Shown here: positions 5,100-64,000 of the stretch, in pieces
Numbering within the stretch: position 1 is the stretch's first letter
Layout of the letters: every line of letters starts with the position of its first letter
Assembly (NCBI GenBank): GCA_008632985.1
Contig: QPGO01000133.1
Span: 1 to 64,000, forward strand
Direction of reading: 5' to 3'
DNA: 64,000 bases
Source: Psammoneis japonica
Lineage: Eukaryota
Notes under the pieces: generated by a model
What the model was told of the DNA's origin: nothing
The model's input: the letters and a program-made list of their open reading frames with translations, nothing else
Databases searched by the model: none
Made by a program: the position numbers and the translations under genes

Positions 5100-7180
5100 T
5101 TCGACCTCTTGTGTGCTGCAGACCAGTCTTGTGGGATTTCTGTCTAAAATGAAAAGTCCATGAGATGAGAAATGTGTTGTTTGCATCCAACGCCATGTGG
5201 GGAAATCAAAGTGTGTCAGCGCCCTCACCACATGGGTGCAGGACACATCCAGAGTTGGGTGCACTGACTCAGTGGATGGGTCGGTGACCAGATCCTCTCA
5301 ACTGAGATCTTTGCTTGCTCTCCAATGCCTGGTGCTGCCTGTTGTTGTTGCACACATCATGGGCGCCAGACGGGAAGACCCTGCAAGGTCATGTCTCCCT
5401 TTTGGCGATGCTTCCTCTGCATTGGCTGGGACACATCATGTTGACAAGAGGCAGATCAAGCACCTCAACTCACATTGAGCAAGGGCCCAGCAGCAGTGTG
5501 CCAGCATGCCATTCTTTCAAGGACTCTCATCAATGATGACTGGGCCTGATCCCAAGCCTTCTTTCTTGTGCCATGTGCCAGAGACTGCCGATGTCAGTTT
5601 TCTTGCACAGCAATGATCATGAGCTTGGAGATGTGTGGGTGTCTTGTGCATGGGGGAAGGGCCTTTCAAGCCCCTTTTGAACAAAGAGAGCACAAAGAAG
5701 CTGGTGTGATGAGAGATGGTTGCTTTTGTTGTTGCTGAGAAATGCAGCAGAGAGATTGACCCCCATTGCTCTTGCACATTTTTTGTCAAAACACCTCTTC
5801 CAACACTCTCTCCAAGGATTTGTCATTCCCACAAAAAGCTGCTGCGGGTGAAAGACTGACAACAAAGGGTTTTGAAGTGACGGGGTTGTTTCACACAGGG
5901 GGGTTTTGAAATGACAAAATCTTGCCACGCAGCATGAAGGCAAAACTCAAAATGCCAAGTGCAAATTTCCTCAAAACACAAAACCTGAAAGAGAAAAGAG
6001 AATGCTCTCAAAGGGTTCTGACAAGGAAATTTCCATGCCAGATCCACATGAGATGCAAAGAGCAAAACAATGCACAGCATGTTGCTGGTTGCTGAGCTTG
6101 ACAATTTGGCATGATGTTTCAACCTGATCATTTGCAACAAATGCCCAGAGAAAAGTGATTGAGCCACAAAAGACCTGTGCTCCACAAACTTGCCAACTCA
6201 TCATTTAGAGCACAAAGCTTGAGTTGCAACACAGCTCAAAACTTGCCTTGGTTGGCTGGTGTCATGACAGAGAACAAAAATCCAAAAGCAGCGGTGTGCC
6301 CATCCCTTGACTGCATGCCATGCTCTTTGTTGTGCGATGAAAAGTTCTCCAAATTCCTTCTGAAAAAGCACAAGCTGTCCAGCAACATTCGCAGCATTGC
6401 ACCCAGCAAGAACAAGGGGGCAAACACAATCTCTTTGCATGCCACCAGCTTCTTGGCTGTTGGTTGGAAGCACACTTGTTGCCCAGACACTGCAAGCTCC
6501 AGCCATGTGCCCAAATTCAGCCAGCACCAAACTTGTGAAGAAAACCTTTTGAGGTGGCTGTCAAAGAGCACCCACAACCTGGGGCTGGAGCAGGCCAAAA
6601 ATGGGCTGGCTGCCACAGATTCCCCTGGGGATTGTCCCTGGGATTCCCAGCAACAGTGCAAAATGGGCCCTTGTCCAGAGAAGTTCTGAAGTTTCCAGGA
6701 GTTTTGTGCTGAACCCCTCTCTCATTGTGCGGGGCTTGCTTGGGGTGGCCTTGCAGAAGGGTGGGGTGGCTCTCAGTCAAACAAACAGCGATGGTCCTGT
6801 GGTGCAAGCAAGACCCACACCCCCGTTGTCAACAAAGCTTCTTGCAGCAATTCCCAATGTTTTGCCAACTGATTTGGGCTGACTCCCAGCTTGCTCTGGC
6901 CAGCAGACAAGTTGTTGTTTAAACTCATTGGTTGTCGCGGCCGCTGCCCTGCTTGCTTCTGCTTCAGCAAAACCAAAATGATGTCACAGCGCTTGCACAG
7001 CGAGCGAGTTGTTGCCGATCTGAAATTTTGCTCCCCCTCTTTGGTTCCCCCGTCGCCAGCTGCCCCGCTTTCCTGCAAGTCAATGATGTGATGACCTGTC
7101 GTGCCCCCCCCCCCCCTGCGCCCCACACGGACAACCGACATGTGACATGATGTGGAGAAAAAAGCGAAGGAAACGTTGAT
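5100..7180. other. TpA- and CpG-depleted degenerate repeat-derived block
   Basis: Only a handful of TA in about 2 kb (e.g. CTAA ~5144, TTAG ~6205, TTAA ~6919); TG/CA-rich. The right end (~7005-7040) matches ~15705-15740. Confidence 0.8.
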
Positions 7181-7276
7181 GAATGTACGGCAAAGTTCAA
7201 GAGTGACAGTAGTTGGTGCTGTTGTTGCAGTCGCTCTTGTTTGTATCCTTTTCATTTGTCAGCATACGGTATAACA

Positions 7277-7888
7277 ATGGTATATGTGGTTGGAAGCGAA
7301 TACAACAATGAAGAACAAGAGATTGAAATTGACGTCAACAGCTCGCAAGCATCAGGCCCAGTGAGTTCGTCTCGTCGCCTCGAATTTATCCTTGAGCTTG
7401 TCGGTATCCCGTCGGACGATTTGCCACTAGTACTTGAGAAAGCCAAGGACATGGGCCTGACGGCAGATGATTTGGGATTTATTGAACAACAAGATGTGGA
7501 TTCGCTCTTGTCGGAATGCAGTAGCTTGCAAAGGCGAAAGTTTGTGCAAGTATGTGAATATCTCAAGCACGGTGGTACTTTGGCGCATGGCATGACCATG
7601 ACGGATGTGTACGATAAGAATAAAAAAGTTGAGGAAATAGATAATCAAGAAGAAGAAAAACAAGAAGAGAAGGAAGAAGAAACGCCACCTTCGGCTACAA
7701 GCGCTACGAGTCCCTCTGCAGCGGATGTTCCTTCTTCCACGCAACAAAACTCCGCTCCCAACAAAAATTACTTTGACAACGCCTCAAAGGCATTCAACCA
7801 AATACCTCAGCAGCTTCGAAAGTGGCAACGATTCAAAAGACAGTTGCGTGGTATTGTGAATGCGCTCAAGGGATGTTTTAAATTCTAG
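7277..7888 (+). CDS. Hypothetical protein with small helical domain and acidic linker; intact paralog of the pseudogene at 15936
   Basis: ATG at 7277 in ACAATG context, open frame, normal TA content. A degenerate duplicate lies at 15936-16550. Confidence 0.7.
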   Translation: MVYVVGSEYNNEEQEIEIDVNSSQASGPVSSSRRLEFILELVGIPSDDLPLVLEKAKDMGLTADDLGFIEQQDVDSLLSECSSLQRRKFVQVCEYLKHGGTLAHGMTMTDVYDKNKKVEEIDNQEEEKQEEKEEETPPSATSATSPSAADVPSSTQQNSAPNKNYFDNASKAFNQIPQQLRKWQRFKRQLRGIVNALKGCFKF

Positions 7889-8209
7889 CTAACGAGCTGG
7901 CCCTTGGAACTGTATGAAAATCAAATTCTCTCTAGTTTAATGAAGATAGATCCCAGCTCACTAGATTGACCTTTACAAGAGAAGTCGGAGGTTTAAAAGG
8001 CTTCGTTTCAACATGTTCGATTTCACGGCTTGTAACCCGATGTTTGTCTCAGAGCTATGAAGTGGTCAAGTGCCGACTTTTGTTACAGAGAACACACTGT
8101 AACACTCCACTTTGTTGATCGCATCGGGTGGTTTATTTTTCAATTTGTGAGGCTCACGAGTAGTGGAAAGGAACAGCTGCTACGGCACAATGCTGTAGAT
8201 TTCACCGTC

Positions 8210-9960
8210 CATTGAAAATTCGCTCGTGCTCACACACGAATTTCGAATGTCTCCGACACAACTGGAGGCATGCTTCTTCCTGTGTGTTTGTTTGCACTCT
8301 TCGTCACATCTTGGCAGGTCTTTAGAAAGTGACGTGTGAAAAGAAAATGACAACGCACAACAAGTTGACAATGCCTGTTCAAAGCATTTGACAACGCACG
8401 TGCCTGTTCACACACATGATGCAAACCAAAAACAAAGAGCAGAGAAGCGATGGCATTCACCTCATTTCTTTCTGCTTGTTTGACAGGCATTGAGGTGTCA
8501 ATGAAGCAGATTTCTTCTGGCAACGAGAAAGACTCTTGTGGCAAGGCAATCAATGGAGGCGATCCTTTTGGACCTGCTCCAGCTGCAAAAAGTGCATGCC
8601 ACATTCTGCAACAACACAACAACAACAACAACAACTCACACAGATGGGAGCCTGAATTTGACATTTGAGCAGCAGTTGTGTCTGGCAAATCTGATGTAGA
8701 CTTTCCTCCCTTGAAGATTTTTTGCTGCTTCTTTCCTCAGATTTTTGCTCATTTTGAAGTGCCGGCTGCCACCCTTGTTGCTTGAAGATCATGGACAATG
8801 AAAAGAGAAATCTTTGGAAATTGATTTTTGTGAGAAAATGATGGCACAATGCATGTTGCTGTTTTTCAGATGCATTTGAGAGACTGTTTTGCTGCTGCCT
8901 CTTTTGTTGGGCGCCTTGCATTTTGAGGAAGAAGTGTGTCTGTGCTGCTCTCATCATGTGAGGAGCTCACAAAGAAAAAGCTTGTCATGATTGGCCATCC
9001 TGTGTGAGAGTCTTGAGTGAACAAAAAGACAACACCAAAATGGTGGCACCAAAGCTCGATGGCTGTGGAGCCACCAGGTGATTTGAAAGGTGCTTGTGCA
9101 GAGTCAACACAAACCTTTGCAAAAATTGCAATGCTCAAACTGTGGGTGCTGTGCCTTAGAATGAAGTCAATTGGCCACAACACCTGGGTGTCACTGGCAT
9201 TGTTGCTCCACTTTGCAATTTTGGATCCATCGCACTTGTGCCCAGGCTTCTCAATCATTGCACACCCCCAAAGCTGAGCACCCAGCCACTCTTTTGTTCA
9301 TGACAAAATTGGTGTGTTTGAGCACCAACTCATCATCAAAGCAAAAGTGTCACCCACAACAACTTGAGCTGCAGACAATGATGCACACACCAACACACCA
9401 CAGAGGCTCGCGCTGTTGTTTGTGTCTCCAGCACCAAGCTGGCAAGCTGGGCACAGCAGAAGCCAAAGAACCCTGCTTTGCAGTTTGAGAGTGTGAGAAA
9501 AAGTGGCACAAAAAAGCTGAGTCAAAAGGATCATGTCCGTGCAACACAACAGAGCAGCAAAATCCAAGCTCCAACAAAGAGGCTTTGCACTTGCTTTGTG
9601 CCAACAAAGCCGGCGCCAGGTTGCTTTTTCCTCATTTTTTGTTGCTTCTTTCCTCAGATCTGTTCATTGTCAAGTGCTGGAAGTCATTCTCACCATTGCT
9701 TGGGGGGTGCAGGAAATGAAAGAAAAATCTTCAGGAAGCAATTTTTGGCAAGAAAACGATTGGAAGCTGTGCACACAGCTGCTTTTGCTCTTTGAGCCAC
9801 TGCTTTTCTGTTTCTTCTGCTGCATCTGACTGTTTTTAACAACCCCCCCCAGATTCATCCACTCATCAACAATGCTGAGAAGAAAGATGAGGTTAAAAAA
9901 ACATTGTTCAGAGCTTGCAAGTGACAGCTGCAAGAGGAGTCTCCGGTTTTTCTTTGCCGA
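8210..9960. other. TpA/CpG-depleted degenerate block (unidentified repeat relic)
   Basis: TA and CG are nearly absent; contains a (CAA)n run at ~8610-8635. Confidence 0.75.
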
Positions 9961-9972
9961 GTGCTGTAAGCC

Positions 9973-12482: not shown

Positions 12483-14214
12483 AGCTGTTAGTTTATTCTA
12501 AAAGGTGGTTAAGAGCGATCAAACTTGCCATCGTCGCATCGGTGTATGGTTACCTGAATCATCGAACCGGCAAACTATGACAGTAGGAAACTTTGTAGGA
12601 CAAGAGAGCACAAAACGACACCCGGCGCATGGACAGAATTTTTTTGCTTTCGGCTATCCTGCTCACCGTTCCACTTTGAGGCAATGGCCTCCCAAAGCAA
12701 GGTTCTTCCACAATAGGTAGCACTGCCACCTGCCGGCCGATTCACCACATTGTTTCATTTTCGTAGTGTGACTCATCCTGCTCATCACACTATTTCTTGC
12801 TCTCTTCTGTAACACATGATGCCTGCACAGCTCCTCCCTCAAGAGCAGCAGCTCCTCCCTCAAGAGTGGTGGCATCTTTTGCCCAAACCCAAATGGAAAA
12901 ACACGTTGCTTGGCATTCCGGGAACCATGTCACTCCAAGATGCCACTGGCTTGGATGAAAATGTTTTTTGTTCACAGCTTGGTCATGCAAAACTCATTGA
13001 GTTGTGAAAAAAGGGCAGTGGTGGCTCTCTTCCTGGAGCACAGCACAAAGCACCAAGGTGATGCATGGTTGCAAGAGAGAGAAGAAAGAAGCACACTTTG
13101 AAAGACACACAACAAAAAACAGAAAGATGTTGGCTGCAGGCCAGCACAATTTGCCACTTGATCCCCCATTGCCTGGCACAGCAAGCAGGTGCAGTCTTCT
13201 CTGGGAGGGAGAGATGAGGCTTTGACAGCTGCAAAAAAAGCTCAAAATGGCCAAAAAGAGAAAGACAGTGCTTGCATGTAAAACAGAGCACAAAAATGTC
13301 ATGTTGAACACTGCCTGCCACAGCACCTGTGGCTGATGAGCCAAGATGTTCAGAAACAACAAAACAGCAGGTGTCCTCAACATTTTTTTCAGCAAAGCAA
13401 TGATTTCTTGGCAGGGGTGCTTGTGCTGGAGTTTGTGTGTGTGTTGTGCAAAAAGAAGGGTGCAGTGCACACAGAGCTTCTGCTCACAGACTGGAGCAGG
13501 AAGTGCAATGTTGAAAAAGGGCATGGCATTGTTGCCAAGTTTGCCAAGTTGTGAGTGTCTGGCATGCTCCAACTGAAGGCCCCACATGTTTTTTTCTGCA
13601 ACATCAGCTGTTGTCAAGAACATCAACACTCTGGAGTTTGTGCCACACAAGAAGCACAAAGATGTTTTGTCAAAATTTGTTGCTGGACAGAAAGGTGGAG
13701 TGTGCATTTTGGTCTGGTTCAGGGAGGCCTCAACATGCCAAGTCTGGGCGCCAGTGGATCATGACTGTGTGTGTCTTGCCCTCCCCCCAGTCTAATGAAT
13801 TTGCATTTGAGCTTTGCTTTTGCCAAATGTGGAAGATTTTTTGAGACAAGATGAGCCAACTTGACATCCTGCGTTGCCTTGAGATGACCAAGTGAATTTT
13901 GGTGATCTGGCCATTTCACATGTTTCTTGCAGTGCACCTGGTCATGTCCCCCCCCACCCAGGTCTCTCTCTTCACTTGTCTCTGTTCAAGGTTGGTTGTT
14001 CTTTCTTCTTTTTTGGGCTCTTTCTGTCTGTCCTGGCATGTGAACACATGACAATGTGAGCGGCAATCTAATGCTGGCGCATTGCGGGTCAACCCACGAC
14101 TCAAAAACCACACACAAAATTGGCCGGGTGTTGTGTGTGGTTCATCACCAGCACCAAGGTTTGACTGCAAAAAAGAAAAACAAACATCAACACAGCAAGG
14201 GATCAAGAGAGCAC

Positions 14215-15113
14215 TGTGTTGTTGCAAAGAGCCTCATTTCTGTCTGCACTCAAAATTTGTCAATCAGCATCTGCTGCCAATCAGGGCAGTGAGCTTCTTG
14301 TTCAAGTGAGCTGTTGATTCCACACGGAGCATTGTGCACAGTCTGTCACAGATCTTGTTAAACTGACTCATGATGTTTTGCAGTTTTTGGTCTTGCACAG
14401 TTTCCAGCAAGTTCAAAGAAAGAGGGTGGGTGTGATCATCAAGATGCTCAGTTTGGCATTCTGTCCTGTGGTGTGGATTCATTCAGGGGAACATTTGTCA
14501 TGCTCACTGTGTGCCCCACACTTCCATTGTTGCCACTGTGCATTCTTGTGGTGGATTGTGGAGGTTGTTTCTTTGTGCAAAAAGTCCGCAATGCTCAATG
14601 CAATGGTGCTGCTGCTGTGTTTGCAGTGGACAATGCCTGTCTTTGTTCCAATGAGGAGTGTTTGAATGACAACACTGAAGACGCTTCATCATCATGCCAA
14701 AACAAGGAGCTGATTCTTGCAGATGATGGCTTGGGCACCAACACATTTCCATTCCAACCTTTCTCAAGAAAAAAACAGATGCCAACAGGGTGAAACAAGA
14801 GCTCAAGGATGGAAATCTTGCTGTGATGGAAATGTTGTGGACCACAAAAGAAAAGGACCACGTTGTCTGTGAACTCCACATGGTTCCAACCAACTTTGCT
14901 TCTTGGGATTTTTTGCATGGCTTTGGCAATGTTGCAGCAGCATCAGGAACAAGGCGACCTTTGTTCCTTGCATGTCATGTGCATTTGCAATGGCACCAGG
15001 TCACACACTCAAGGAGTTTCTGGAGAGAATTTCTGTTTCAACAAGACCAGCCCAGACGATGATTTGGCAAAGGGCACATTGGGTGCCAGCATTGTTGCCA
15101 AAAGCCTTTGATG
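14215..15113 (+). pseudogene. Hypermutated, truncated copy of the VSR-like gene at 17246
   Basis: Colinear with 17246-18210 including intron 1, e.g. VDCGGCFFVQKVRNAQCNGAAAV vs VDRGGCTFVQKVRNAQHNGAAAV. Shows TA->TG/CA and CG->TG/CA changes plus indels. Confidence 0.9.
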
Positions 15114-15935
15114 TTCATTCACATGGGAACAATGTGCTCTTGCATGGGTGAGGCAGAGTCATCTGTCACCCAGTCATCACCCAATGCAGGGGACACAACC
15201 TTGCCAAGTTCTGCCCAAGACTGCCTCAGTCCCCAGGATTTAAGCCCAAAAAACCACCACCCAAGCCCCCATGCCCCCCTTGATGCTCCACCCATGGAGG
15301 GCAAGCCCGAGGCATGGGAGATGAAGTTGAGCCCAACAACAATGGCAAAGTGACATCCGATTTGAGAGTGCAAGCCAACTTGACAAAGGCACTGTCATCT
15401 GCAAAAGAGGAGAAGAAATCAGGCATGATGGGAGAGAGACAAGCAAACAGAAACAGATTTTTTCAAAACTTGCAGCAGTCCAGTCACAGTGACCAATGTT
15501 CCTGTTCCAACAAAGCTGGAAAAGTGAGAAGAGCAAAAAGACCATGCGGGGTCATCTTGGCTCAGATGTGCCCTCCTCCAGGTGGTCAGCAACCAGAAAG
15601 TGTCGCCCTTGTTGGGCGGGCATGCTGAAGGCTTGGTGTCTCCATCTAAACTTGGGTGTGAAGAGGACAAAAAGTTGTCAGCTGACGATGTTAGAGCAAG
15701 CAAGCAAGTTGTTGCCAATCTGAAATTTTGCTGCTGCACCCCCCTTGGTTGCCAACACAACAAAAATGCAGTGCCCCCCATTTTGTTGCTCCCTCAAGTC
15801 TGCATTTTTCCCTCCATGAAATGGCGCCACCGGCTGTTGAATGTGTTCGCTCAACAGCAACAACACATTTGATGTCATTGTTGTTGCAGCCACACTTGTT
15901 TGCATTCTTTTCATTTGTCAGCATGTGGCACAACA

Positions 15936-16550
15936 ATGGCACATGTGGCTGGAAGCAAAAACAACAAGAGTGAAGAACAACAGAGAGATTGAAATTGACA
16001 CGTCAATGGCTCACAAGCATCAGAGGCTCAAGTTTGTCCTTGAGCTTGTTGGCATCCTGTTGAACAACTTGCCACAAGTGCTTGAGAAAGCCAAGGACAT
16101 TGGCCTGATGCATGGTGGATGTTTGGGATTTGTTGAACAACAAGATGTGGATTGGCCAGTGCCAGAATGCAGCAGATTGCAGCATCGAAAGTTTGTGCAA
16201 GTGTGCAAACATCTCAAGCAGGGTGGTGTTTTGATGCATGGCATGACCATGACAGATGTGCACCACAAGAACAAACAAGATGAGGAAATGGAAAATCAAC
16301 AAAAAGAAAAACAAGAAAAGAGAAGAAGAAGAAAGACCATCTTCGGCTGCAACACAAGCACTGCGAGTCCTTCTGCAGTGGATGCCCCATCTTCGTCAAT
16401 GCAACAAAACTCCACCCCCAACAAAAATTGCTTTGACAATGCCTCAAAGGCATTCAACCAAATGCCTCAGCAGATTCGAATGTGGCAATTGTTCAAAAGA
16501 CACAAGTGCGCGGCATTGTGGTGCACTCAAGGGATGTTTTGAGTTTTGGC
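15936..16550 (+). pseudogene. Hypermutated copy of the gene at 7277
   Basis: Colinear with 7277-7888, and flanks also align (7000-8315 vs 15700-17005). Examples: TATATG->CACATG and GTATGTGAATATC->GTGTGCAAACATC. Confidence 0.9.
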
Positions 16551-17245
16551 TGTGGCGAGCTGGTCGTTTGCACTTGTGGCAATGGCGGTTCTTGGAAACG
16601 GGCAACTGCATGAAAAGCACATTCACCAAGCTTTACATGGGAAGACGAATCTTTGAAAGCTTTCGTTTTGTCTCCACTTGACATCTTCGATTTCACGGCT
16701 CTGCTGCAAGAACCCAATGATGTTGGCCAGAGCTTTCAAGTGGTCAAGTGCCGTTTTTTTGTGCAGACTTTCTGCTGAAACACTCAACTTTGTTGATTGC
16801 ATTGGATGGCCCATTTTTCAATTTATGGGGCTTGCGAGTGGTGCAAAGGAACAGCTGCTGCATGCGGCGCGGCTGTTCAGTCGACTTCACAGTCCATTGA
16901 AAATCCACATGCGTGCTCACACACGGATTTTGAATGCCACTGACACTGCTGCAGGCATGTTTTTCCCTGTGTGTTTATTTGCGCTATCGTCATCACAGTT
17001 GGTCCTGGAGGTGCAAAATTTGAAAACAGCTTGTTTGGGTTCATCTCGCTCGCTCGGCTGGCTCGCTCCCAGCGCCTCAAGACAGTCTGCACGTCAGCCG
17101 TTTTTGCGATCCAACGCTCGTCGACCCACGACTCAAAATCCGCGCGTAAAACTTGAAAACGGTCGTGTGCGGTTTGTTGTTCCTTTCGCTTTTCGCTGTG
17201 TCGCACAACATAAAACATCAACGCAGCGAGGACGAAGAAAGCACC

Positions 17246-50200: not shown

Positions 50201-53200
50201 ACCAAAATCCCACAATCGCTTTGGTGCCTTCTTCTTCATCATCTGCAGCCGCCAATGTTTGGCCAAGAAACCAATTTCGTGCTCCGCTGCCTGGTTCTGG
50301 TTCTTCCGACCCTGCTCTGATGTTCTTGGTTGCACTCTCGTGCGTCGTGCGTGTCTCACAAATTCGGTGCTCCTTCCTGTGAACTCTCCTGCCCCGTCCG
50401 ACATAAGACATTCTGGTGCACCCACGTCGTCTGTGAATTCAACAAGAGACAAACCTGCCTCCGACCCAGCGGTCATTGGCACAACCTTCACGAATTTGCC
50501 CTGAGCACAAACATTGGCACACGTGTTGCCGAGCAAAGACTTCACCTTGGATGTCAAAGTGTCCACAAACCATGTTGCTTTCAGATGCTTCCGATGCAAG
50601 TCAAGATGATCCACCCTCACTCTTCGTGACATCGGCTGGGTCGCTGTTCGCACACCACGCTGAGTTGTTACATTGAGGGTGTCTTTTGCCGTTTCTAAAC
50701 CGACACTCCATTTTCGGGCCAGCTCTTCAGCGTCAATCTTCGAGTGCCGATCCTTGCCACATAAATCTTTGACTGCCCTCTGCCTCTTGTCCACGTTGTC
50801 GCGATGTGCACAAGCCACGTTCACTGAGCTGACAAGCCTGTCGCAAAACGATTGAAGTTGACAGATGGGAGATGCAGACGACAGTTGCACTTCGACCTCG
50901 CCCCAGCGCACTGCTTGGGACTTTGCCTTCTCGCTCCTTAATTCCGAGACCTGTTCTTGTTGCATGCCAGAGGTTGATGATCGAACAGTGCGCATCTCCG
51001 CCTGCTCTCTAGTGCGCTCCGGTGAGCCCATGTCCAGCTGTGCTGGATCCCATGCGTCACCTGTCAACAGCATGACCAGTGAGCTCTGCACTTCCCAATC
51101 CGTCGGAACACGAGACTTGAAAGACACAATTGTCCCCGTGGCATTGAAAGGGATGAAAGCTTTGTCAGCTTCAATGCCAAATCCGTTTCGGGTGTCGCAA
51201 GGGTTGTCGTGCACGGGTGTGTTGTGCGCACAGAGTTGGTTAGGATTCAAAAGTGAGTGTTCCATGTCGGTCCCAAACCAGAGCATTTGATCACCAACCA
51301 GCAAACATTCATGAGTCGTTTCCGGATCTGTCCATGCGGTGCAACAACGTGCCACAGGAATCTGTTTGATCGGCTCATGAGAGTCCAGAAATGGATGCAC
51401 CTTGCACACTTCATTTGTCATCTCCATGAGCTTCCAGTTCGCCCCAGTGCAACAAGTGTCCGCATGAGCATCACATTCATTTCGAGCGACAAACCCAGGT
51501 GTCGTCAAATTTGTCATCTGTGCAGAACTTGTCGATCGGATCACACGTTTTGATGTCACGGCAATGTGCCTCTTTGTTGCCTTTCCTTTGAAATGAGACA
51601 TTGGGTGGGGTTTGGTCAACAGCAAGAAGAGTGACACAAGCAAAAACGACAAGTGTGCCAAATGCACCAATGCTCCAGCAGCTGTTGCCACCCCAAGGAG
51701 TCAGGTGGAACCATTGCAGGCTCCCCGACCGAAGGCGCATCCATCACGTCCACCACGATCCCGGTCAGCGCCGCAACCACGCCCGCCACTCCTTTGCTCC
51801 TGATCCTGTTGTTGGGTTTGGCCATGGCCATCTTGATGGACTTGGGCTTCAGCCACATGCCTGCCGCCCCCATCGCGTCCTTGTTGACCTGCGGGAGACC
51901 CACGGCCACCACCGCATCCATGACCCATTCGTTCGCGAGCTTGGAACACGCAGCTCATGCCTCCATCACACTGCAACTTTTCCCATTCTTGAGCGCTAAA
52001 GCTCCTTGTAGGGTCGGATGCATCGACTCCATTGATCATTGCAGTGTGGTTGCCACCTCTGCCTTGACGGCCACCACCACGTCCGCGTCCACCCCCACGT
52101 CCAAATCTTCCTCCGCGACCGCGACCTTGATAAAAACCGCGGCCACCGCCGCCACCACGGCTCATTTCAGAAATCTTGCACTTCGAGCAACGCCGGGCTT
52201 CCAACTGAGCACCTGCATGCAAACGAGAGACTTCGGATGAGAAATGAGCACATGCCCCCGCGAAGTCACGAGGGTGCTGACTGCCAATGACAGCCGTTGC
52301 TGCAATGAGACGAGTGTCATCTGTTCGGATCCCTTTTAGAAGAATGTCAACTTTCTGTCATTCAGATTTGCGGTCGTCCGGTGATTTGTTCAAAGCAGCG
52401 AAAGCACTGGCAAGTTTCTCATTGAACTTTTCAAACGGGAGCAATCCTTCCTTTTTGTAAAACAAGGTTTCAACAGTTGCCGTAGCCAGATGGACGCGCT
52501 TGCTCAACTCGCCCTGTCCATTGCAATGGTCAACCCATGCGTTGAATGCTCCACGTCCGTCTTCTGTCGCGTCAAACGGTTTGATCCATGCCCATCCTGC
52601 CGTGTCGACCAAGTGTTCCTTCAACATGCGGCAAACGCTGCGGTTGTCCTCGTCATGTGCGGCGCCATTCAATGGCATCTGGCACATGCGCTGTTGTTGA
52701 GCATCCGTGAATGCAGCCGGAGCTGGCATTGTCCTTACGACACAGCGAAGGGGTTCTTTCAACACGCCAAATTTCTGTGCCAAGAGATTCAAGAAAGCAT
52801 CTTTGCACACATCGAAGTCATCAGGCTTGAACTTTACGAGACCGCTTGCCGACGTGTCCGAATCCGTGCGCTCCTTTTCGATGCGCCTGCCATTCCGGGC
52901 CGCAGCCACAGCTGCTGCATTAAAGTCTGCCGCAACCAATGGCTGATTCCGTTTGAGCAAATCCTGGCACCACCATGCTAGCGCCTGTAAGTTCTTGATC
53001 TGAGTGGTCCCAAGAGTCACACGTCCGTCGGCCACCGTGCGACGAGACGCCCTCTGCGCCATGTCTTCCACATCGTGATCACTCTCCATCACTGCGATGT
53101 TTTCCAAAGTCGCGGACCCTTCATGGAAGACCAACCTCGCCCTTGCGTTCTGGTCAGCAACACCACAAACTTGCAAAACTGCATCAACGTCAGCTGCCGC

Positions 53201-53695
53201 GGCTGACGCCGCAAGTGCTGCTGCTGGTGCTGCCGCTGCTGCCATCCTGCAACAGAGAAAGGGTGCAAAGGTCCCGCACCGGGAACACACACAGCTGTGA
53301 GTCTGCATGGTCATGATGGCTGCACTTTCTCTGTGTTGTGATAACGGGTTCACACAGCCACCCAACGTCAGGGTGATCAGTCCTGTGTCGTTCATGTCAA
53401 CCGACATTGTTGAGCACACGCTCGGGCATGTCGCCCAATGCCGCAGTCCCTTCACACCCGTTGCATGTGTGAGGACAGTGACTGTCTTTGCGAGTGTCAC
53501 CATTGCAAGCTGTTTTTGTGGACATTGTTACAAGCGACACGAGATGCATCATCGTGCGCATCAATCCGAATTCTGACGCATCGCGCACAGTTCAGTGCCG
53601 TTTCTGCAGCTGCACGTTCTGTGCAAACAACACAACAAACAATCGTCCATGACGAATTGCACCTCGAAACCATTTCGCTCTGTCTTTTTCGTCTT

Positions 53696-53706
53696 GGCTC
53701 TGACAA
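53696..53706 (-). promoter_or_regulatory. Primer-binding site, tRNAiMet-type
   Basis: Minus-strand TTGTCAGAGCC next to the 5' LTR, matching the canonical TATCAGAGC core with a TA->TG change. Confidence 0.65.
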
Positions 53707-53708
53707 AG

Positions 53709-53890
53709 CGAATAAATCTCGATGCAACGAAAGAACAAGCACGATACCTTAAGTCTAAATAGAAAGTAGTGACACTGTCAATGCGAACCTAAACCTGATT
53801 AGATTGTGAGCGTGTCGCTGCAGCACCACTCGATCCATATATCTTAACCAATCACCAATTATAACATAGCCCTCCATCCAGATTTACTCG
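53709..53890 (-). repeat. 5' LTR of copia element 1 (largely TA-retaining)
   Basis: Matches 47024-47205. Confidence 0.93.
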
Positions 53891-58010: not shown

Positions 58011-58367
58011 TGTTTGAAGCATAGAGCAGTGTAAAGGTTGAGCGCTCCTGAATACTGCTTATGCTGTGACCTTGATGCAATGAGTTGCTGTTGATGATGA
58101 TTCGTCTTTTTGATGAGCAAGTCGTGTGAAATGCCATCAACGGTGCGATAACTCTCGTCTGAGAGTCAGGGGAAGTCGACTGAGGTCGAATAATAGATGT
58201 ATCGCTGGCGAAGAGGGCCAACGATAACGGTATGATTGGTAAAGCTGCTAATGTCTTGTTACACTAGATGTTGTAATTGTGAGAAAAGTTGAAAAAGACC
58301 GATGGCGGGAAATCGCATACGTAAGTGAGCGCGCGCGTATCGCGCATGAGTTCGTACTGTGTTGACA
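58011..58367 (-). repeat. Putative 3' LTR of copia element 2
   Basis: Starts TGT directly after the PPT. The distal end (TCAAACA at 58011) is inferred, since the partner LTR is not in the window. Confidence 0.55.
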
Positions 58368-59840
58368 CTCCCTCTCGAACGAAGAAGCATGCCAACCGCA
58401 AAGCAACTTTCGAATAGCCTCGAATTTAACCGTAACGATACCTTTAGTCAGAACATCAGCGCGTTGCAAATCTGTTGCGATCTTGGACACAGTAACTCGA
58501 TTTGGTTTGAGCTGTGAACGGAACCAATGACATTTGATTGCGCAGTGCTTGGACCTTGGCGTCACTCGGCCAGGTTCCACATTGGCTGGAGTCAAAGCCC
58601 CAGCATTGTCCTCCCACACAGCAGTGCGAACAGTTTTGGTGGTCCCCAGACCAACTCCAATGCCTTGAGAGATGGCTTGTGCAGTGTGCAGAAAGGGAAG
58701 GACAGTTTTCATGCAAGTGGAAAGAGCGCTGCACTCTGCTTCCATTGTTGACAGAGCAATTTCAGGTGCAAGCTTGCTGGGCCAAATGACAGGACAGTTG
58801 GAAACGCAAATGACAAATCCTGTTCGGCTTTTGACACAAGCCGGGTCATGCTTGTCTTCGTGTGGCCACAGTCCAGCAAAATCTGAGTCAACAAACACGT
58901 CAATGTTGAAGTCCCCAGATGGCTTGAGGATTGAGCCTTCATCCAGAGCACCCTTCAGGTGTCGACCCATCCGTTCAAGGGCCAGTTCATGCGAGCGACG
59001 AGGGCCATGAACAAATCTGGCTGCTGAGCTAACGGCGCAGGCAATGTCTGGCCTGGAATGGCCTTGAAGACATTGGAGCATGCCAACCACACTGGCATGA
59101 TCACAGGCTCCATTTGGTGGGTCTCCATCGGTGTCCTTGACCAACGGAGCAGCTGGTGTGGGCGTTCGGGCCTTTGGCAGATGGCCCACGTTAAGGGCTT
59201 CGACGACACGTTTGGATGGACCGCTCTGAGTGAGCTTGACAGTGCCATTGTCGGTGTCGCGTTCGATGTGGACCCCCAAAAAACCTGCGACGGAATCTTC
59301 AACTTCGATGGCCAGACCGCCATCAATTTTGAGTTTGTCGATCACTTCGTCAATGTGCTCTTGTTTTGGAGAGAAGAACAATGTGTCATCAACATGAACG
59401 AGGCAGATGACTTTATCGGACACAAATGGACACGGATCAACATCGTCTTGCGATTGAAATCCGGCATCTTCAAGTTTTGACTTGAGGTGCAGGAAAAAGT
59501 TACGAGGTCCTTGCTTGAGACCACACACGGTCCGTTTGAGTTTCAGCACTTTGCCGGGCTTGGTGTGTCCGCGAGGCATCTGCACGAAGACACCAGAGCG
59601 TTCTCGCTCTTCGGGCGTCATGGTGTCCCATTTGGGATCCTTGTCAATCGGAGCATGGACGAAAGCGGTGACACAATCAACTTGTTTCGTCGAAAGTTCC
59701 AAAATTTGAGAAAGTGTGAGCACAAGCCATGCGGTCGTCCAATTGACAATTGGAGCAAAGGTGTCAAAGCAGTCGACACCTTCCAATTGCTTGTCTCCAC
59801 GGACGCAAAAGCGGGCTTTACATTTGCGGATCGACCCATC

Positions 59841-60151
59841 AGGGTGTCGTTTGCACTTGAAGGCCCAAGTGGATGGCAAGACGTTCATCCAATCTTGGCG
59901 GTCTACTTCTTCCCAGGCGTCTTTGCCTTTGACTAGAGAATCGATTTCGACGTCGCAAGCTTTCAGACAAGCTGCTCAATCAGGACCATTCATTGAAGGG
60001 TGTCGTTTGCACTTGAAGGCCCAAGTGGATGGTAAGACGTTCATCCAATCTTGGCGGTCCACTTCTTCCCAGGCGTCTTTGCCTTTGACTGGAGAATCGA
60101 TTTCGACGTCGCAAGCTTTCAGACAAGCTGCTCAATCAGGACCATTCATTG
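59841..60151. repeat. 156-bp-period tandem duplication inside pol of copia element 2
   Basis: 59841-59995 vs 59997-60151, 3 mismatches. Confidence 0.95.
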
Positions 60152-63100
60152 CTTCTTCCCAAGTTGGATTGTCGGCGGAATTTGCATTTGCTGCGAGGGC
60201 AAGAGGGTGCATTTCTTCGAGTGTTCCGTGAACTTGATCGGTGTTTTTGTTGAAAAGGTCAAGCATTGCGCGCAAATCTTTAGACCGGAGTGCATTTGTG
60301 AGGCTGTCCCAACGCAAGGCCATCAAGAACTGTTTGTTCAGTGTTTCCGACTTGACAGCACGTTTGGGATTCTTGTGGGCATTCGGCAACTCGGTGGGCG
60401 GAGTGCGGATGTCGGCATGCATGGCTTCGATCAAGCGTTCCGGCTTCTTGACGGAACGACCGCTTCGAGTCCGAGCAGGTGTTGTGGCAGCATTCGGAGC
60501 AGGTTGAGGTTGCTCAGCTTCGGCAGGACCCAGGTCGAGGTCTTCAGGTGAGTCGTGATGATTGACAAGCGACAATTCGTCGTCGCTGTCATCACTGAAC
60601 TCATCGATCTTGACTCCCTCTGGAGCCTCTGAAGTTGCAGATTCTAGATCGTCAGCGGATGATTCAGGCAATGCAGGGTGCGCTCCCTCTGGAGCTGTGA
60701 CGGAAGAGGTTGAAGGAGGGACGGCGGGAGGGGCCGTTTTGGAGTTTGAAGACGACGTTGATGGCGGTCGTGTCGATGATTAGCGCGATGACGGCGCTCT
60801 GCGGGTGTCAACCAATCATCGTGTAAAGCCGGCAAGCGACGGCGAGGGTCATCGGCTGTGTCGGAAGGCTCAGGCGGAGCATTGTGTGCCAGCGAGTCGG
60901 CGGTGAGGAGGGATTCCCAAAGGTCGGCAGTGAAGGGAATGTCCTGGAAGAAACTGCCAGAGTCGCTGTTGGGCACTGTTGCAAAGTGGTTGTCGTAGAC
61001 CACGTGATGCTGAGGACTGACATGGCCCGTCGAGAGATTCAAAATGAGGCCGATGTTGGTTGAATGATCCGGTGAGACACCGAGATGTTGGCCACGGCGA
61101 CTCCTGGGGTCCCACTCAGGCAGTTTCTTTCCGTCTTGTAACTTGGGATCAAGAACACATGTGGGGGCAACCCCGTGCTTGTAAGCGCTGCAGGTGCGCA
61201 CAGGTGTCGAAGCGTTGCTTGGAAAAAATCTCGACCGGCGCGGCAAGAGTGTCAGACTTTGGGATGTGGTTCCACAAGTGGGGTCGCGTGGGTCATGGCA
61301 AAAGGCCACAACTCAAGGTTGGCGGCATCAGGCCACATGAGAATGGCGTGCAGCAGCATGGCTCGTGCCCATGAAGTGATGGTTTGGATGGAGCGCTCGG
61401 CCACGCCGTTCTGATGATGAGCGCCAACACCAGAAAAATCAACAGTCTGGTTGTTTTCTTCGAGGTCGTCCATGAAAGCCTTGGTGCCAAACGGGACGTT
61501 GTCAGCAAGGTGGGACTTGATGCGGACCCCAAATTGGTCACTAAGCTGCTCGAAGGACAGCTTGGCACGAACAGCTTCACCTGCGGCGAGACCAACTTGA
61601 TGGGTCAGATGGACATGGGCAGAAGCATGATCAACAAAAATCGTGCCTCCACAATGCTTGTCTTTCTTGGGTTCGCGTCCCTTGGACGTCGGAAGACGGC
61701 CAGGGACATGGCTGATGTGCTGATCAACGGAGACGCGTTGACCAGGCGCCAAATCTCCCTGTCGCAAAGTCAACGGCGGATGACCAGAGGTGCCGCGACG
61801 GTCAGGTGTTCATCGTTTCTGCTTTGCGAGTTGACAGGCAGCACACAAAGGTGCAGTGCAGCTGGAGACGGCTTGTGTTGAAGGCTTGACAATGTGGGAT
61901 TTGGTGGGATCCCGTGGTGTTGCACACAAGCGTTGAATGTGTTGGAAGCCGGCATGACCAAGTTTCTGATGGAGCAAAAGAAGCTCCTTCTGGCCGGGTG
62001 TTAGATTCTGATTGGTCTGAGAAGCAACTGAAAGAAACGAAGCAAGGCGTGCTTCGGTGCTGACGGGAGCCAAATTGCATTGTGTGACTCCGGCTGAGAT
62101 TGGTTCGGACATCATCACAAAAGGTAAGTTGTTTTCTTTGTTGTGCGGGAACTCGAGCGCATCCCCTTTCGGAAGAGTGAGGGTTGCTTTGTTTCCTCGT
62201 ACGTGACATTCACCTTGGTTTCCATTCTCTTGAAAACAGGCTTGAGGGCTGAAGAGTCGAATGGAAGCGTCGGGAACACAGTGGGCTCGCGTTCGGACGG
62301 TCCGGATTACATTCCAACAATCGATTGCGTCCCATTCCACGAAACCTTGACCAACTGCTCGGGTGCTGGAGGACAATCCGTTGATGGCAGTGGCACCAAT
62401 GGGTTCTAGCGGTCCTGCAAAGTCACCCAAGTGGGGTGTGAGCGACGAAGATGCTCCTGTGTCAAGAACAACAGGTGCGTCGACAGGTGGGCACGATGTC
62501 AATGCTTGACATTGGCGGCCTTCGAGATCTCTTGTGTCATTGAAGGATTTGATGTGCTGCGTTGGATCATCGGTCAACCATGGTGGGTCCGGCTTGGATG
62601 CAGCGACGTGAGATGGACCTGTCGTGGTCTGGTGAGAGAACATGGCTGCTCCACCGAAACCACTCGTAAAGGTTGCTGTTGTCGTGCGTGACAGGTTGGT
62701 TGCGATGCAAGAGAGCGTCGGCGCTTGACCACAAGCTCGCAACATTTCGGAAGAGGCAAGTGTCTTGATCAAATGGAGCTGTTCTAAAGGATCAATGCCT
62801 TGAACAAATTCGTCTAACGAACAACCGCACTGCATGTCGCACATGATCCAGGTTTGGTGTAACAGTCGGTGCTTGATGCGGTAGAACTCTTCTAGTTCGA
62901 AAGCTTCAGGGTCGTCTGGAGGTGCAAAAGGTGAGGGCTCCGTTCGTGTCGCGGAGCTACGAGGTTTGGTCCTCAGGTGGTCACCTGGAGGATCAAGCAA
63001 AGTGACGAAATCAGTTAAAGTCGCACCATGAGGAAACTCGTACATCTCGGAAGGTAGATGCAACAGGCGATGTTTGATTTGAGAATGGGCTTCTGCGGCC

Positions 63101-64000
63101 TCTTGTTGAGGATCGACGCAGGCAAATCTGGGTGGTCTCGTTTTCCCAGGTTTGAATCGACATCTCGATCTTGAGAGTTTCCACGACTTGGATTTTCGAC
63201 AGGAGCGATCCGGATCGGCTGCCGTTGTGTTGTCCGGAACAGGAGTTCGGCGCTGTTTGCGCCAAGTCGTTGGATGAAGGAAGGACCACAAGGGGTCTCT
63301 GCGTGGGATTCGAACTGGGTGCCGATCCAAGTGGCGAACCTGAGAATGATGTGTGATCCGAGTTCGATCAGGAGGACGACGAAATGAGGTCGGTTCGACA
63401 GCAGGAACAACAGCAAAGTCGGGAAGATCGTCGTGTGAAAGCGAAGGATTCTTGGAAAAGAGAAGCAAGCAGAACAAACATCCACCTGCTAAAACAAACA
63501 GCAACTGACAAATCGACGAAACTGCTTCGATCCCTCCCTCTCCAAGAATCTGGAGAGTGAACCACAGGAGCAAAAAATGACCAACCGACAAATGAGCCTG
63601 GACATCCCTTCCAGGAGCGGACGGTTGGTTGAAAAGGCAAGAAGAGAGGGCCACACGCTCAGGAGAGGAGGCGTGCCCGAAGCTTCAGGTGAAGGAGGCG
63701 AAGAGGCCGGACACAGTTTCGACCATCTCCTTCTTGGCATTGGCAATGGCGAGGTCACGATCTGTGACGGGAGCGGAAGCCGGTGCCGGAGCGGGCGCAG
63801 CGGCCGGAGCGGGAGAAGGTGCAGCGGCAGGAGTGGAGGCAACGTTCCCCGTCTCAGTCACCGGGTGCCAGCGCTTGGTTTTGCAATGATGGCAATGATC
63901 CTTGCCATCAATGTTGCGGCGACTGTCATCACTCTTTTCGGCTTCAGTCGGTGGCTGCCATTTCTTGGGAATGGTCTTGGCAGAGGGACCGGAAGAGGAG

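What the first reader, a model, noticed from the sequence alone, without database searches (positions are those of the whole stretch)
5100..64000. Candidate repeat-targeted TpA->TpG/CpA hypermutation system ('reverse RIP')
Seen: the large repeat-derived blocks (5.1-7.2k, 8.2-10k, 12.8-17.2k, most of 22.2-31k, 33.1-35.3k, 40-53.7k, 58.5-64k) are strongly depleted of TA, while neighbouring single-copy genes have normal TA. Paired copies show the direction is TA->TG or TA->CA, i.e. A->G on either strand. Known: fungal RIP does the opposite (CpA->TpA), and 5mC decay only affects C. Inference: a repeat- or heterochromatin-directed A:T->G:C mutator that disables TEs and duplicates. Candidate mechanisms are a TadA/ADAT-like DNA adenine deaminase, Pol eta-like error-prone synthesis (WA hotspot), or decay of a modified adenine. 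I do not recognise this as described; the responsible gene is not identifiable in this window.
Basis: partly seen in the sequence, partly recalled or inferred. Interest (0 to 1): 0.95.

Follow-up and report, generated by a model that had tools for sequence, protein, structure and literature searches.

The report
TpA-erasing mutation of silent diatom DNA
In this diatom, retrotransposons, a tandem array and decayed gene copies have had nearly every TA step turned into TG or CA while the genes beside them are spared, a pattern I could not find described.

Summary
Seven blocks (29.5 kb) hold 125 TA where composition predicts 1808 (o/e 0.07). Neighbouring genes and spacers have o/e 0.56. TA-free runs reach 1286 bp.

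The direction is TA->TG/CA by four independent polarisations:
- Two paralogue pairs: 70 TA sites, 1 kept, 55 turned to TG or CA.
- An LTR pair: 15 versus 3 TA, and every difference is a transition.
- A 1333-bp x 6.8 array: 49 ancestral TA sites, 54% converted, TG and CA alternating between copies.
- Outgroup proteins: 24 of 24 conserved Tyr lost, 14 to Cys and 8 to His.

It acts on DNA after insertion and on both strands. In the array it runs about 15x faster than CpG decay and about 300x faster than background. Synonymous and non-coding sites of gene regions are not depleted.

Block edges follow nearness to gene starts, not repeat ends. k-mer contigs of a public run carry the same TG/CA mosaic at equal depth, which argues against a base-calling artefact.

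Three or four unnamed public copia proteins show the same Tyr loss. Ten literature searches found no report. The enzyme is unknown; my best guess is adenine deamination.

The parts
5145..7186 (.). Old TA-erased block L1 (TA o/e 0.02, CG o/e 0.25); origin unknown
   Evidence: no Pfam hit at E<=1; no source found by RY recoding or tblastx
7217..8342 (+). Unmutated parent copy (N state, 41 TA in the 7220-8306 aligned stretch; TA o/e about 0.5 for 7001-8300) of a 1.1-kb segment; its paralogue lies at 15876-17026
   Evidence: RNA-like contig covers 7185-7906
8323..9967 (.). Old TA-erased block L2 (TA 0.04, CG 0.23); origin unknown; internal repeat 8682-8907 / 9601-9823 seen only in purine/pyrimidine code
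12810..17147 (.). Old TA-erased block L3 (TA 0.04, CG 0.27). It holds decayed DNA-level duplicates of two nearby genes: 14075-15136 copies 17107-18230 (with its intron), and 15876-17026 copies 7217-8342
   Evidence: (PA domain remnant at 14374-14790)
17107..18676 (+). Unmutated parent gene (vacuolar-sorting-receptor-like, PA + VSR_TRX domains; intron 17333-17440); N state
   Evidence: (GT..AG skip of 108 bases)
22227..31311 (.). Tandem array, 1333 bp x 6.8, 97-98% identical, caught mid-process: 49 ancestral TA sites, 177 of 330 copy-sites converted (96 TG, 81 CA), CG 22 of 447. The last 258 bp (about 31054-31311) keep 19 of 19 TA
   Evidence: a spliced RNA-like contig lies on it
33197..35326 (.). 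Old TA-erased block L4 (TA 0.04, CG 0.17); origin unknown
39976..46936 (.). Old TA-erased block L5 (TA 0.05, CG 0.24), with the longest TA-free run (41819-43105); origin unknown
47017..53890 (-). Copia-type LTR retrotransposon 1. The 3' LTR (47017-47205) has 3 TA; the 5' LTR (53702-53890) has 15 TA. The interior has TA o/e 0.12 and CG 0.84. The RT motif reads HVDD, and 13 of 13 conserved Tyr are now Cys or His
58251..64000 (-). Copia-type retrotransposon 2, running off the window end. It is TA-erased from 58493 on (TA 0.11, CG 0.88). YVDD reads HVDD, and 11 of 11 conserved Tyr are lost (6 Cys, 3 His, 2 Phe)

Best explanation
A region-confined mutational process works on chromosomal DNA of this diatom and converts the dinucleotide TpA to TpG or CpA, that is A>G on one strand or the other. 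It acts in retrotransposons, a tandem array, decayed gene duplicates and other non-genic blocks. Genes, their promoters-side flanks and their spacers are spared.

It runs cumulatively. In the array it is about 15 times faster than CpG decay and about 300 times faster than other substitutions. It continues until TA is nearly exhausted. Ordinary CG->TG/CA decay then catches up in older blocks.

Because it removes TAA and TAG and replaces every Tyr codon by Cys or His, it destroys proteins (YVDD becomes HVDD) while leaving reading frames open.

Shown: the specificity, the direction, action at DNA level after insertion, use of both strands, region confinement, and edges that follow gene starts.

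Inferred: the domain is silent chromatin. The chemistry is most likely enzymatic deamination of adenine to hypoxanthine in a 5'-T-A-3' context by an ADAT/TadA-like deaminase brought to that chromatin. I give this about 35% among the mechanisms. Next come oxidised or modified thymine at TpA (about 20%), a polymerase error (about 10%), and unknown (the rest).
For: Depletion: 125 TA against 1808 expected in 29.5 kb of L blocks; 936 against 1685 in N blocks.

Direction:
- Paralogue pairs: of 41 + 29 TA in the intact copies, 1 is kept and 55 are TG or CA in the decayed copies.
- Per-base A>G is 0.41 after T (n=155), against 0.09-0.11 after A, C or G (n=281-397).
- Array: 76 of 89 variable columns are TA/TG/CA or CG/TG/CA interchange. 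15 sites show TA, TG and CA in different copies; 7 show TG and CA only.
- The unmutated end of the last array copy carries TA at 19 of 19 inferred sites.
- Proteins: 0 of 11 and 0 of 13 conserved Tyr are kept (14 Cys, 8 His, 2 Phe). In the second RT 222 of 252 other conserved columns are kept; in the first, other residue classes are kept at 67-100%.

DNA level, after insertion:
- The two LTRs of one element differ only by transitions (100% identity over 186 bp in purine/pyrimidine code), with 15 versus 3 TA.
- The decayed gene copy keeps the 108-bp intron.
- TG and CA outcomes are about equal (96:81; 29:26), with no strand runs.

Not genome-wide: TA o/e is 0.55-0.58 at codon phases 2-3 and 3-1, and 0.59 in 6.9 kb of non-coding N DNA.

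Not a family trait: 79 of 80 environmental relatives of the element have TA o/e 0.47-0.89.

Real sequence: contigs of run X1 match L blocks (1 difference in 2116 bp; 6 in 3141 bp) at depth 55-68, the same as in genes.

Seen elsewhere: P0025, P0488, P0494 and P0413 lack Tyr at conserved sites.

For deamination:
- The invariant 5' T matches the U33-A34 context of ADAT/TadA substrates (established knowledge, recalled).
- TAY is hit more than TAR (0.47 against 0.32, p 0.07).
- Residual TA are mainly YTAR, while ATA and TAT are gone (Fisher p 1.5e-18).
- A/T flanks speed both TA and CG loss, as expected for reactions that need base unstacking.
Against: - Only one 64-kb window was examined and no genome is held. 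The link to repeats or silent chromatin rests on a few units, and four old blocks have no identified source.
- The array is hit although RNA-like spliced contigs lie on it, so 'silent' is not strict.
- TG versus CA outcome shows no clear dependence on flanking bases. That fits a symmetric duplex-recognising activity as well as, or better than, a single-strand deaminase.
- No natural DNA adenine deaminase of eukaryotes is known to me (recalled), and no candidate gene lies in the window.
- Run X1 may be the sample the window was assembled from, and its platform is not on record.
- The sources of the other Tyr-less proteins could not be looked up, so they might come from close relatives.
Confidence: 0.8

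Rival explanations
1. Protection rather than targeting. A lesion or mispair at TpA arises everywhere in the genome, but is efficiently repaired only in transcribed or open chromatin. Silent DNA therefore decays passively.
For: Edges follow nearness to gene starts and not repeat ends: the 5' LTR keeps 15 TA against 3 in the 3' LTR, and the last 258 bp of the array keep 19 of 19 TA. Unique expressed parent genes are spared while their copies decay. Loss looks clock-like and is tied to CpG decay across blocks.
Against: The contrast is very large: about 300-fold over background in the array. Promoter-side and spacer DNA that need not be transcribed is also spared. The array is hit although RNA-like contigs lie on it. 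No spontaneous TpA-specific A>G lesion of such a rate is known to me (recalled).
Confidence: 0.2
2. Homology-triggered, RIP-like premeiotic mutagenesis. Duplicated DNA is recognised by pairing and both copies are mutated at TpA during the sexual cycle.
For: Targets include an array, LTR elements and duplicates. The left edge of the TA-poor zone coincides with the first repeat unit of the array (TA dense to 22216, then sparse). The array has near-normal CpG and is expressed-looking, yet it is hit.
Against: In both old pairs only one copy is mutated: 41 and 29 TA are intact in the parent copies. One LTR of a pair is spared. The end of the last array copy, which is still repeated sequence, is spared 19 of 19. 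Four blocks have no detectable partner in the window.
Confidence: 0.2
3. Modified thymine. A TET/JBP-type oxygenase makes 5-hydroxymethyl- or 5-formyl-uracil at TpA in silent DNA, which mispairs with G and gives T>C.
For: On duplex DNA, T>C at TpA cannot be told from A>G at TpA. The TG/CA outcome is independent of flanks, which suits duplex recognition. P0025 shows seven extra Asp->Gly changes, compatible with T>C at TpC on the other strand. From memory, dinoflagellate hydroxymethyluracil favours TpA and TpC; the review passages I read (PMC6313786) mention the base but not this preference.
Against: No TC->CC excess is seen in this window's pairs. The two 2OG-Fe(II) oxygenase genes in the window match prolyl-hydroxylase-type models, not Tet_JBP. 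Modified thymine is not known in diatoms to my knowledge (recalled).
Confidence: 0.2
4. RNA editing (ADAR/ADAT-type A-to-I) of transposon transcripts, fixed by reverse transcription.
For: The change is A>G with a 5' U/T preference. Two targets are retrotransposons.
Against: The LTRs of one insertion have diverged by this very change after integration. An intron-bearing DNA duplicate and a tandem array are hit. Both strands are used equally, without strand runs.
Confidence: 0.03
5. Artefact. Base-calling errors at modified bases (for example 6mA or 5mC) in a long-read assembly produce false TG/CA.
For: The window differs from the read contigs by many 1-base indels. Two of these are also seen in the RNA-like run (10768, 10965), as in an incompletely polished long-read assembly. 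Strand-specific miscalls would also give TG and CA in equal shares.
Against: k-mer contigs built straight from run X1 carry the same site-by-site TG/CA mosaic over 2-3 kb with 1-6 differences, at the same depth as genes. Strand-specific miscalls could not give that. No TA->CG outcome appears. The decayed copies also carry about 19% other changes and indels. Unrelated public proteins and one metagenome contig show the same Tyr loss.
Confidence: 0.04
6. Genome-wide mutation bias, with selection keeping TA in genes (a neutral equilibrium in junk DNA).
For: All TA-poor blocks are non-genic or dead.
Against: TA o/e is 0.55-0.58 at synonymous-capable codon phases and 0.59 in non-coding N DNA. The intron and upstream DNA of the parent gene keep their TA. 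The spared LTR and array end are non-coding.
Confidence: 0.03

Closest known systems
Repeat-induced point mutation (RIP) of Neurospora and other fungi (RID/DIM-2 dependent)
   Same: Dense dinucleotide-specific transitions on both strands that wreck transposons and duplicated DNA. The effect is cumulative and leaves a compositional scar readable from dinucleotide ratios.
   Different: The chemistry is the mirror image. RIP makes TpA from CpA and lowers GC. Here TpA is destroyed to CpA/TpG and GC rises (0.53 in young elements). Stop codons are removed rather than created. Unique parent copies, one LTR and a repeat end are spared. The host is a diatom. A cytosine methyltransferase or deaminase cannot act on A or T.
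5-methylcytosine deamination (CpG decay) in methylated transposons
   Same: Slow, silent-DNA-confined decay to TG/CA. It is present here too (CG o/e 0.17-0.27 in old blocks), and A/T flanks speed it.
   Different: It cannot touch TpA. Here TpA loss is about 15 times faster than CpG loss in the array.
A-to-I editing by ADAR or ADAT/TadA-family deaminases (tRNA A34, fungal sexual-stage mRNA editing, hyper-edited retroelements) and engineered TadA adenine base editors
   Same: The outcome is A>G with a 5' U/T requirement. There is a weak preference for a 3' pyrimidine, as in the UAC of the tRNA-Arg loop (the tRNA context is recalled).
   Different: Natural members act on RNA. Here the change is made on chromosomal DNA after insertion, on both strands and over kilobase domains. 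DNA-acting TadA variants are laboratory products (recalled).
Phase-2 immunoglobulin hypermutation (Pol eta errors at WA)
   Same: A:T->G:C changes at TA in a confined region.
   Different: AA is not hit: A>G is 0.10 after A against 0.41 after T. There is no accompanying AID-type hotspot pattern.

Membership tests
RIP (fungal repeat-induced point mutation) | C:G->T:A transitions, mostly CpA->TpA, giving TpA excess | tested here: not met
   The direction is the reverse. TA o/e is 0.07 and TG+CA 1.64. Polarised TA->TG/CA.
RIP (fungal repeat-induced point mutation) | Both members of a duplication are mutated | tested here: not met
   Parent copies keep 41 and 29 TA while the copies keep 1 and 0. 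LTR pair: 15 versus 3 TA.
RIP (fungal repeat-induced point mutation) | Mutated tract delimited by the duplicated segment | tested here: inconclusive
   The left edge of the array fits. However, the last 258 bp of the array, the 5' LTR and 240 bp of copia-2 are spared.
RIP (fungal repeat-induced point mutation) | Premeiotic timing and dependence on a RID/DIM-2 type enzyme | not testable with these tools
   No genome is held. Passages of PMC9998398 say that diatom DNMT4 is related to RID and that its function is unknown.
CpG decay by 5mC deamination | CG->TG/CA in silenced repeats | tested here: met
   CG->TG/CA at 25 of 48 and 37 of 45 sites in the pairs. CG o/e 0.17-0.27 in old blocks. This explains only the CG part, not TA.
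RNA editing fixed by retrotransposition (ADAR/ADAT) | Changes arise before integration, on the transcript strand, in retrocopies only | tested here: not met
   LTRs diverged after insertion. An intron-bearing duplicate and a tandem array are hit. Both strands are used.
Pol eta WA-motif mutagenesis | A mutated after A as well as after T | tested here: not met
   A>G is 0.10 after A (n=397) against 0.41 after T (n=155).
APOBEC/AID-type cytosine deamination | C>T in TC, CC or WRC contexts | tested here: not met
   C>T outside CG is 0.07-0.12 in all contexts.
ADAT/TadA-like adenine deaminase acting on DNA (hypothetical) | A>G restricted to a 5'-T context | tested here: met
   This is a resemblance of specificity only.
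ADAT/TadA-like adenine deaminase acting on DNA (hypothetical) | A deaminase-fold gene and deoxyinosine in the DNA | not testable with these tools
   No such gene lies in the window, and no genome is held.

The most novel reading that the evidence does not exclude
Diatoms of this lineage possess a chromatin-guided genome-defence enzyme that edits DNA at 5'-TA-3' (A to hypoxanthine, or T to a G-pairing derivative). It would be the first natural A:T->G:C DNA mutator and a functional mirror image of fungal RIP. It kills transposons by erasing every tyrosine codon while never creating a stop codon.
Probability: 0.4. Interest if true: 0.95.

Novelty: categorically new. Interest (0 to 1): 0.88.

Why it matters
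If a dedicated activity lies behind this, three things follow.
- Point-mutation genome defence, so far a fungal speciality, would extend to a major algal lineage with a different chemistry.
- It would point to a natural enzyme that changes A:T to G:C in DNA within a two-base context. Until now that has been achieved only by laboratory-evolved base editors.
- Diatom biologists would gain a sequence-readable clock and marker for silent chromatin.

There is also a practical consequence. TA-erased DNA has almost no TAA or TAG (1.9 and 1.4 per kb against 9.0 and 7.9), so it is full of long spurious open frames. Dead transposons stay 'intact', as with a 2061-residue polyprotein that has no Tyr at all (P0488). 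This will mislead gene and TE annotation.

Tried and rejected
- Whole genome: none is held, so genome-wide statistics and a search for the enzyme were impossible.
Their sources remain unknown.
- Origin of the old blocks 5.1-7.2k, 8.3-10k, 33.2-35.3k and 40-47k: no Pfam hit at E<=0.01 or at E<=1, and no tblastx hit to 80 copia loci. Purine/pyrimidine-recoded self-comparison gave only small matches among much noise.
- Strand-coordinated clusters: runs tests were negative (p 0.32-0.62).
- Flank dependence of the TG versus CA outcome: none clear.
- Close DNA relative of the partly depleted metagenome contig L017, for polarisation: none above 67% identity.
- RNA evidence: no RNA holder is listed for the stretch. 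Run X2 behaves like RNA (two GT..AG skips), and its contigs lie on genes and the array. The L blocks had no X2 cover, which I do not use as evidence.
- Differences between the X1 contigs and the window inside block L3 are mostly CpG-type polymorphisms. They say nothing on current TA activity, because TA is exhausted there.
- tRNA and Rfam scans: nothing found.
- TRF misses the 1333-bp array because its longest period is 500.
- Earlier findings of this scan: none for this genome. The only 'TpA depletion' note concerns a phage island and does not bear on this.
- Literature: ten full-text searches found no report of TpA-specific mutation of repeats; one further search was rejected for syntax. I read passages only of PMC2806351 (no dinucleotide or point-mutation analysis), PMC9998398, PMC12543289, PMC9099904, PMC4504042 and PMC6313786. 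Subscription journals and supplements were not searched.

Full report
WHAT IS THERE

The window is nuclear DNA of a diatom. Its EF-Ts is 66-73% identical to diatom proteins (Seminavis robusta and an MMETSP Rhizosolenia are named), and nothing is closer. The two retroelement RTs have their nearest named relatives in Nitzschia inconspicua, Seminavis robusta and Fragilaria crotonensis.

The window alternates between two sharply different states.

- N state: genes and their spacers, 23.8 kb sampled. TA o/e is 0.556 (936 observed, 1685 expected) and CG o/e is 1.01.
- L state: seven blocks, 29.5 kb. TA o/e is 0.069 (125 against 1808), TG+CA 1.64 and CG 0.52.

One-kb windows reach TA o/e 0.00-0.06. 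TA-free runs reach 1286, 1061 and 1044 bp, whereas N DNA carries a TA every 25 bp or so.

TWO AGE CLASSES

- Young: copia element 1 (47017-53890), copia element 2 (58251 to the window end) and a 1333-bp x 6.8 tandem array (22227-31311). TA o/e is 0.11-0.24 and CG is nearly normal (0.81-0.88).
- Old: 5145-7186, 8323-9967, 12810-17147, 33197-35326 and 39976-46936. TA sits at a floor of 0.02-0.05 and CG is down to 0.17-0.27.

DIRECTION: FOUR INDEPENDENT POLARISATIONS

(1) Paralogue pairs. Block 12.8-17.1k holds decayed copies of two nearby intact genes.
- Of 41 TA in 7220-8306, 1 is kept in the copy, 17 are TG and 13 are CA.
- Of 29 TA in 17213-18108, 0 are kept, 12 are TG and 13 are CA.
- CG behaves alike: 25 of 48 and 37 of 45 went to TG/CA.
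- Strand-collapsed, A>G is 0.41 after T (n=155) against 0.09-0.11 after A, C or G. C>T is 0.37 before G against 0.07-0.12 elsewhere.

(2) The array.
- After dropping the 12 junction columns, 76 of 89 variable columns are interchange among TA/TG/CA (40 sites) or CG/TG/CA (13 sites).
- 15 sites show all of TA, TG and CA in different copies. 7 show TG and CA only, which needs a TA ancestor.
- Of 49 inferred TA sites, 177 of 330 copy-sites are converted (96 TG, 81 CA, at least 62 events).
- CG sites: 22 of 447 are converted. All other positions: 17 of 7459 differ from the majority.
- As exponential decay this is 0.77 : 0.050 : 0.0023. TA loss is thus about 15 times CpG loss and about 300 times the background.
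- The final 258 bp of the last copy are unmutated and carry TA at 19 of 19 inferred sites, which validates the inference.

(3) LTRs of copia-1.
- 47017-47205 and 53702-53890 are 89% identical.
- They are 100% identical over 186 bp in purine/pyrimidine code, so every difference is a transition.
- By my reading of the alignment, nearly all differences are TA in the 5' LTR against TG/CA in the 3' LTR.
- The counts are 15 against 3 TA, and 9 against 8 CG.

(4) Outgroups.
- Columns were used where at least 70% of homologues have Tyr.
- Copia-2 RT keeps 0 of 11 (6 Cys, 3 His, 2 Phe; 59 homologues).
- Copia-1 RT keeps 0 of 13 (8 Cys, 5 His; 70 homologues), while 222 of 252 other conserved columns are kept.
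- The catalytic YVDD (consensus) reads HVDD in both elements.

LEVEL AND SCOPE

The LTR result shows that the changes arose after integration.

The decayed copy of the sorting-receptor gene retains that gene's 108-bp intron: 95 aligned positions, 74% identity, 91% in purine/pyrimidine code. The intron itself is shown by a GT..AG skip in run X2. So this copy is a DNA duplicate, not a retrocopy.

TG and CA outcomes are about equal and show no strand runs. RNA editing followed by reverse transcription is therefore excluded.

A genome-wide bias held back by selection is also excluded.
- In eight N genes, TA o/e is 0.39, 0.55 and 0.58 at codon phases 1-2, 2-3 and 3-1.
- It is 0.59 in 6.9 kb of putative non-coding N DNA.

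The low TA is not a property of the element family. 79 of 80 environmental relatives fetched with their DNA have TA o/e 0.47-0.89; one (L017) has 0.21 with partial Tyr loss. The 80 are the best of 489 confirmed matches.

IS IT REAL SEQUENCE?

Contigs built from public run X1 lie on the L blocks with 1 difference in 2116 bp, 4 in 2700 bp and 6 in 3141 bp. Their word depth is 55-68, the same as over the genes.

X1 may be the sample behind the assembly, and its platform is not on record. The window also shows 1-base indels against X1, two of them shared by the RNA-like run X2, so the assembly is not perfectly polished.

The worry would be base-calling errors at modified bases. Such errors are strand-specific: plus-strand reads would give TG and minus-strand reads would give CA. 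They could not give k-mer contigs that carry the same site-by-site TG/CA mosaic at full depth. I therefore put the artefact at about 4%.

Independent public sequences show the same signature.
- P0025 has 0 of 11 conserved Tyr (6 His, 5 Cys), the one such case among the 120 listed homologues of the first RT.
- None of the 120 homologues of the second RT is Tyr-poor.
- Among 150 cluster representatives, 4 have under 1% Tyr.
- P0488 has no Tyr in 2061 residues; its 6 conserved Tyr columns read 5 Cys and 1 His.
- P0494 reads 4 Cys, 1 His and 1 Phe.
- P0413 reads 5 Cys with 1 Tyr kept.
- P0381 keeps 5 of 6 and is at most a partial case.

Their sources could not be looked up. The trait is therefore rare but not unique to this assembly.

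SPECIFICITY BEYOND THE DINUCLEOTIDE

The 125 residual TA are mostly YTAR, GTAR and TTAC. ATAN and NTAT are at 0-6% of their N frequency: 14 of 125 against 474 of 934, Fisher p 1.5e-18.

In the pairs TAY is hit somewhat more than TAR (0.47 against 0.32, p 0.07). Whether a site ends as TG or CA does not clearly depend on its flanks.

CpG loss is also faster with A/T flanks: ACGA is at 0.36 of its N frequency and GCGC at 1.02.

WHAT DEFINES THE TARGET?

The evidence is mixed.

For repetition:
- The targets I could identify are repeats or duplicates.
- TA density drops exactly where the array begins (dense to 22216, then sparse).
- The array is hit although a spliced RNA-like contig lies on it.

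For position or chromatin:
- In both old pairs only the non-genic copy is mutated.
- The 5' LTR lies just upstream of the gene that begins at 53981 and is spared. Its twin, buried among old L DNA, is not.
- The array's last 258 bp lie just upstream of the ORF that begins at 31248 and are spared 19 of 19. The same copy is mutated like the others further in (9 of 17 against 7-9 of 17).
- Copia-2 is N-like for its last 240 bp next to a gene's 5' end.

I conclude that the domain is set by a chromatin state that excludes gene starts, with repeats as its usual content. This is inference.

MECHANISM

Shown:
- a TpA-specific transition on either strand of duplex DNA;
- cumulative action;
- confinement to a domain.

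Not shown: which base is attacked, and by what.

Pol eta-type WA mutagenesis fails because AA is not hit. APOBEC/AID-type contexts fail too. RID-type enzymes act on cytosine.

My preferred guess (about 35%) is deamination of adenine in a 5'-T-A context by an ADAT/TadA-like deaminase recruited to silent chromatin. The invariant 5' T is the hallmark of that family's natural substrate (U33-A34; recalled, not tested). The mild 3'-pyrimidine preference and the flank effect also fit.

A modified thymine that pairs with G (about 20%) is equally compatible with the duplex data. It would better suit the flank-independent TG/CA outcome. P0025's seven Asp->Gly changes hint at T>C at TpC as well in another host.

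Passive decay through lack of repair in silent DNA remains possible (about 20% as the mode of confinement).

COMPARISON WITH KNOWN SYSTEMS

In logic the closest system is fungal RIP. In chemistry it is the reverse, and two defining RIP features tested here are not met (the direction, and both copies being hit).

CpG decay co-occurs but cannot explain TA loss. A-to-I editing shares the specificity but acts on RNA.

Ten full-text searches found no description of repeat-confined TpA->TpG/CpA mutation in diatoms or elsewhere. Of the key diatom TE and methylation papers I saw only passages, and they contain none. Subscription literature and supplements were not covered.

VERDICT

The system behind it is unidentified. 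Limits: one window, no genome, four old blocks of unknown origin, and a read set that may not be independent of the assembly.

Noticed in passing
window L blocks, e.g. 34356-35813 (+), 12997-13758 (-), 33124-33906 (-): TA erasure removes TAA and TAG (1.9 and 1.4 per kb against 9.0 and 7.9 in gene regions). Dead DNA is therefore full of long open frames rich in Gln, Cys and His (up to 486 codons) with no family match. Gene callers would be misled.
   Followed up: partly
window 10046-12258 (+): Three consecutive ORFs (10046-10885, 10932-11456, 11365-12258) look like one gene broken by frame changes. Both the DNA-like and the RNA-like run show 1-base insertions at 10768 and 10965 relative to the window. 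These are probably residual indel errors of the assembly, or strain differences.
   Followed up: partly
window 10046-10885 (+) and 21114-21536 (-): There are two 2OG-Fe(II) oxygenase-like genes. The second matches 2OG-FeII_Oxy_3 (E 2.8e-07). The first has no Pfam hit but shows an HRD-type motif by eye. Both are prolyl-hydroxylase-like rather than TET/JBP, so no link to the mutation process is claimed.
   Followed up: no
window 15145-15778: A short stretch inside old block L3 has word depth 472 against about 57 around it. It also shows many alternative joints skipping 92-111 bases between 15529 and 15642. This is probably a high-copy miniature element that is variably present.
   Followed up: no
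window 22314-22416 and 22510-22963: The RNA-like run X2 has a GT..AG skip of 101 bases and a contig inside the tandem array. The array unit thus seems to be a spliced, expressed gene of unknown family (no Pfam hit).
   Followed up: partly
window array 22227-31311: Several variant sites alternate copy by copy (patterns such as CTCTCTC at columns 14, 33, 433, 869 and 1288). This suggests that the array grew by duplication of a two-unit (2666-bp) block while TA erasure was already under way.
   Followed up: no
window 59841-60151 and 38752-38916: There is a 156-bp x 2.0 tandem duplication (98% identical) inside copia-2, and an 87-bp x 1.9 repeat inside a gene-region ORF.
   Followed up: no
protein P0025 (unnamed public record): Besides losing all 11 conserved Tyr, this RT has Asp->Gly at 7 of 22 conserved Asp (YVDD reads CVGG) and Val->Ala at 3 of 21 conserved Val, plus further Phe->Ser and Val->Ala changes seen by eye. 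In its host the process may also hit GpA/TpC.
   Followed up: partly
window 4501-5145: The 3' end of the ankyrin-repeat gene next to block L1 is mildly TA- and CG-poor (TA o/e 0.27, CG 0.69 for 4501-5200). This may be leakage of the process into adjacent unique DNA.
   Followed up: no
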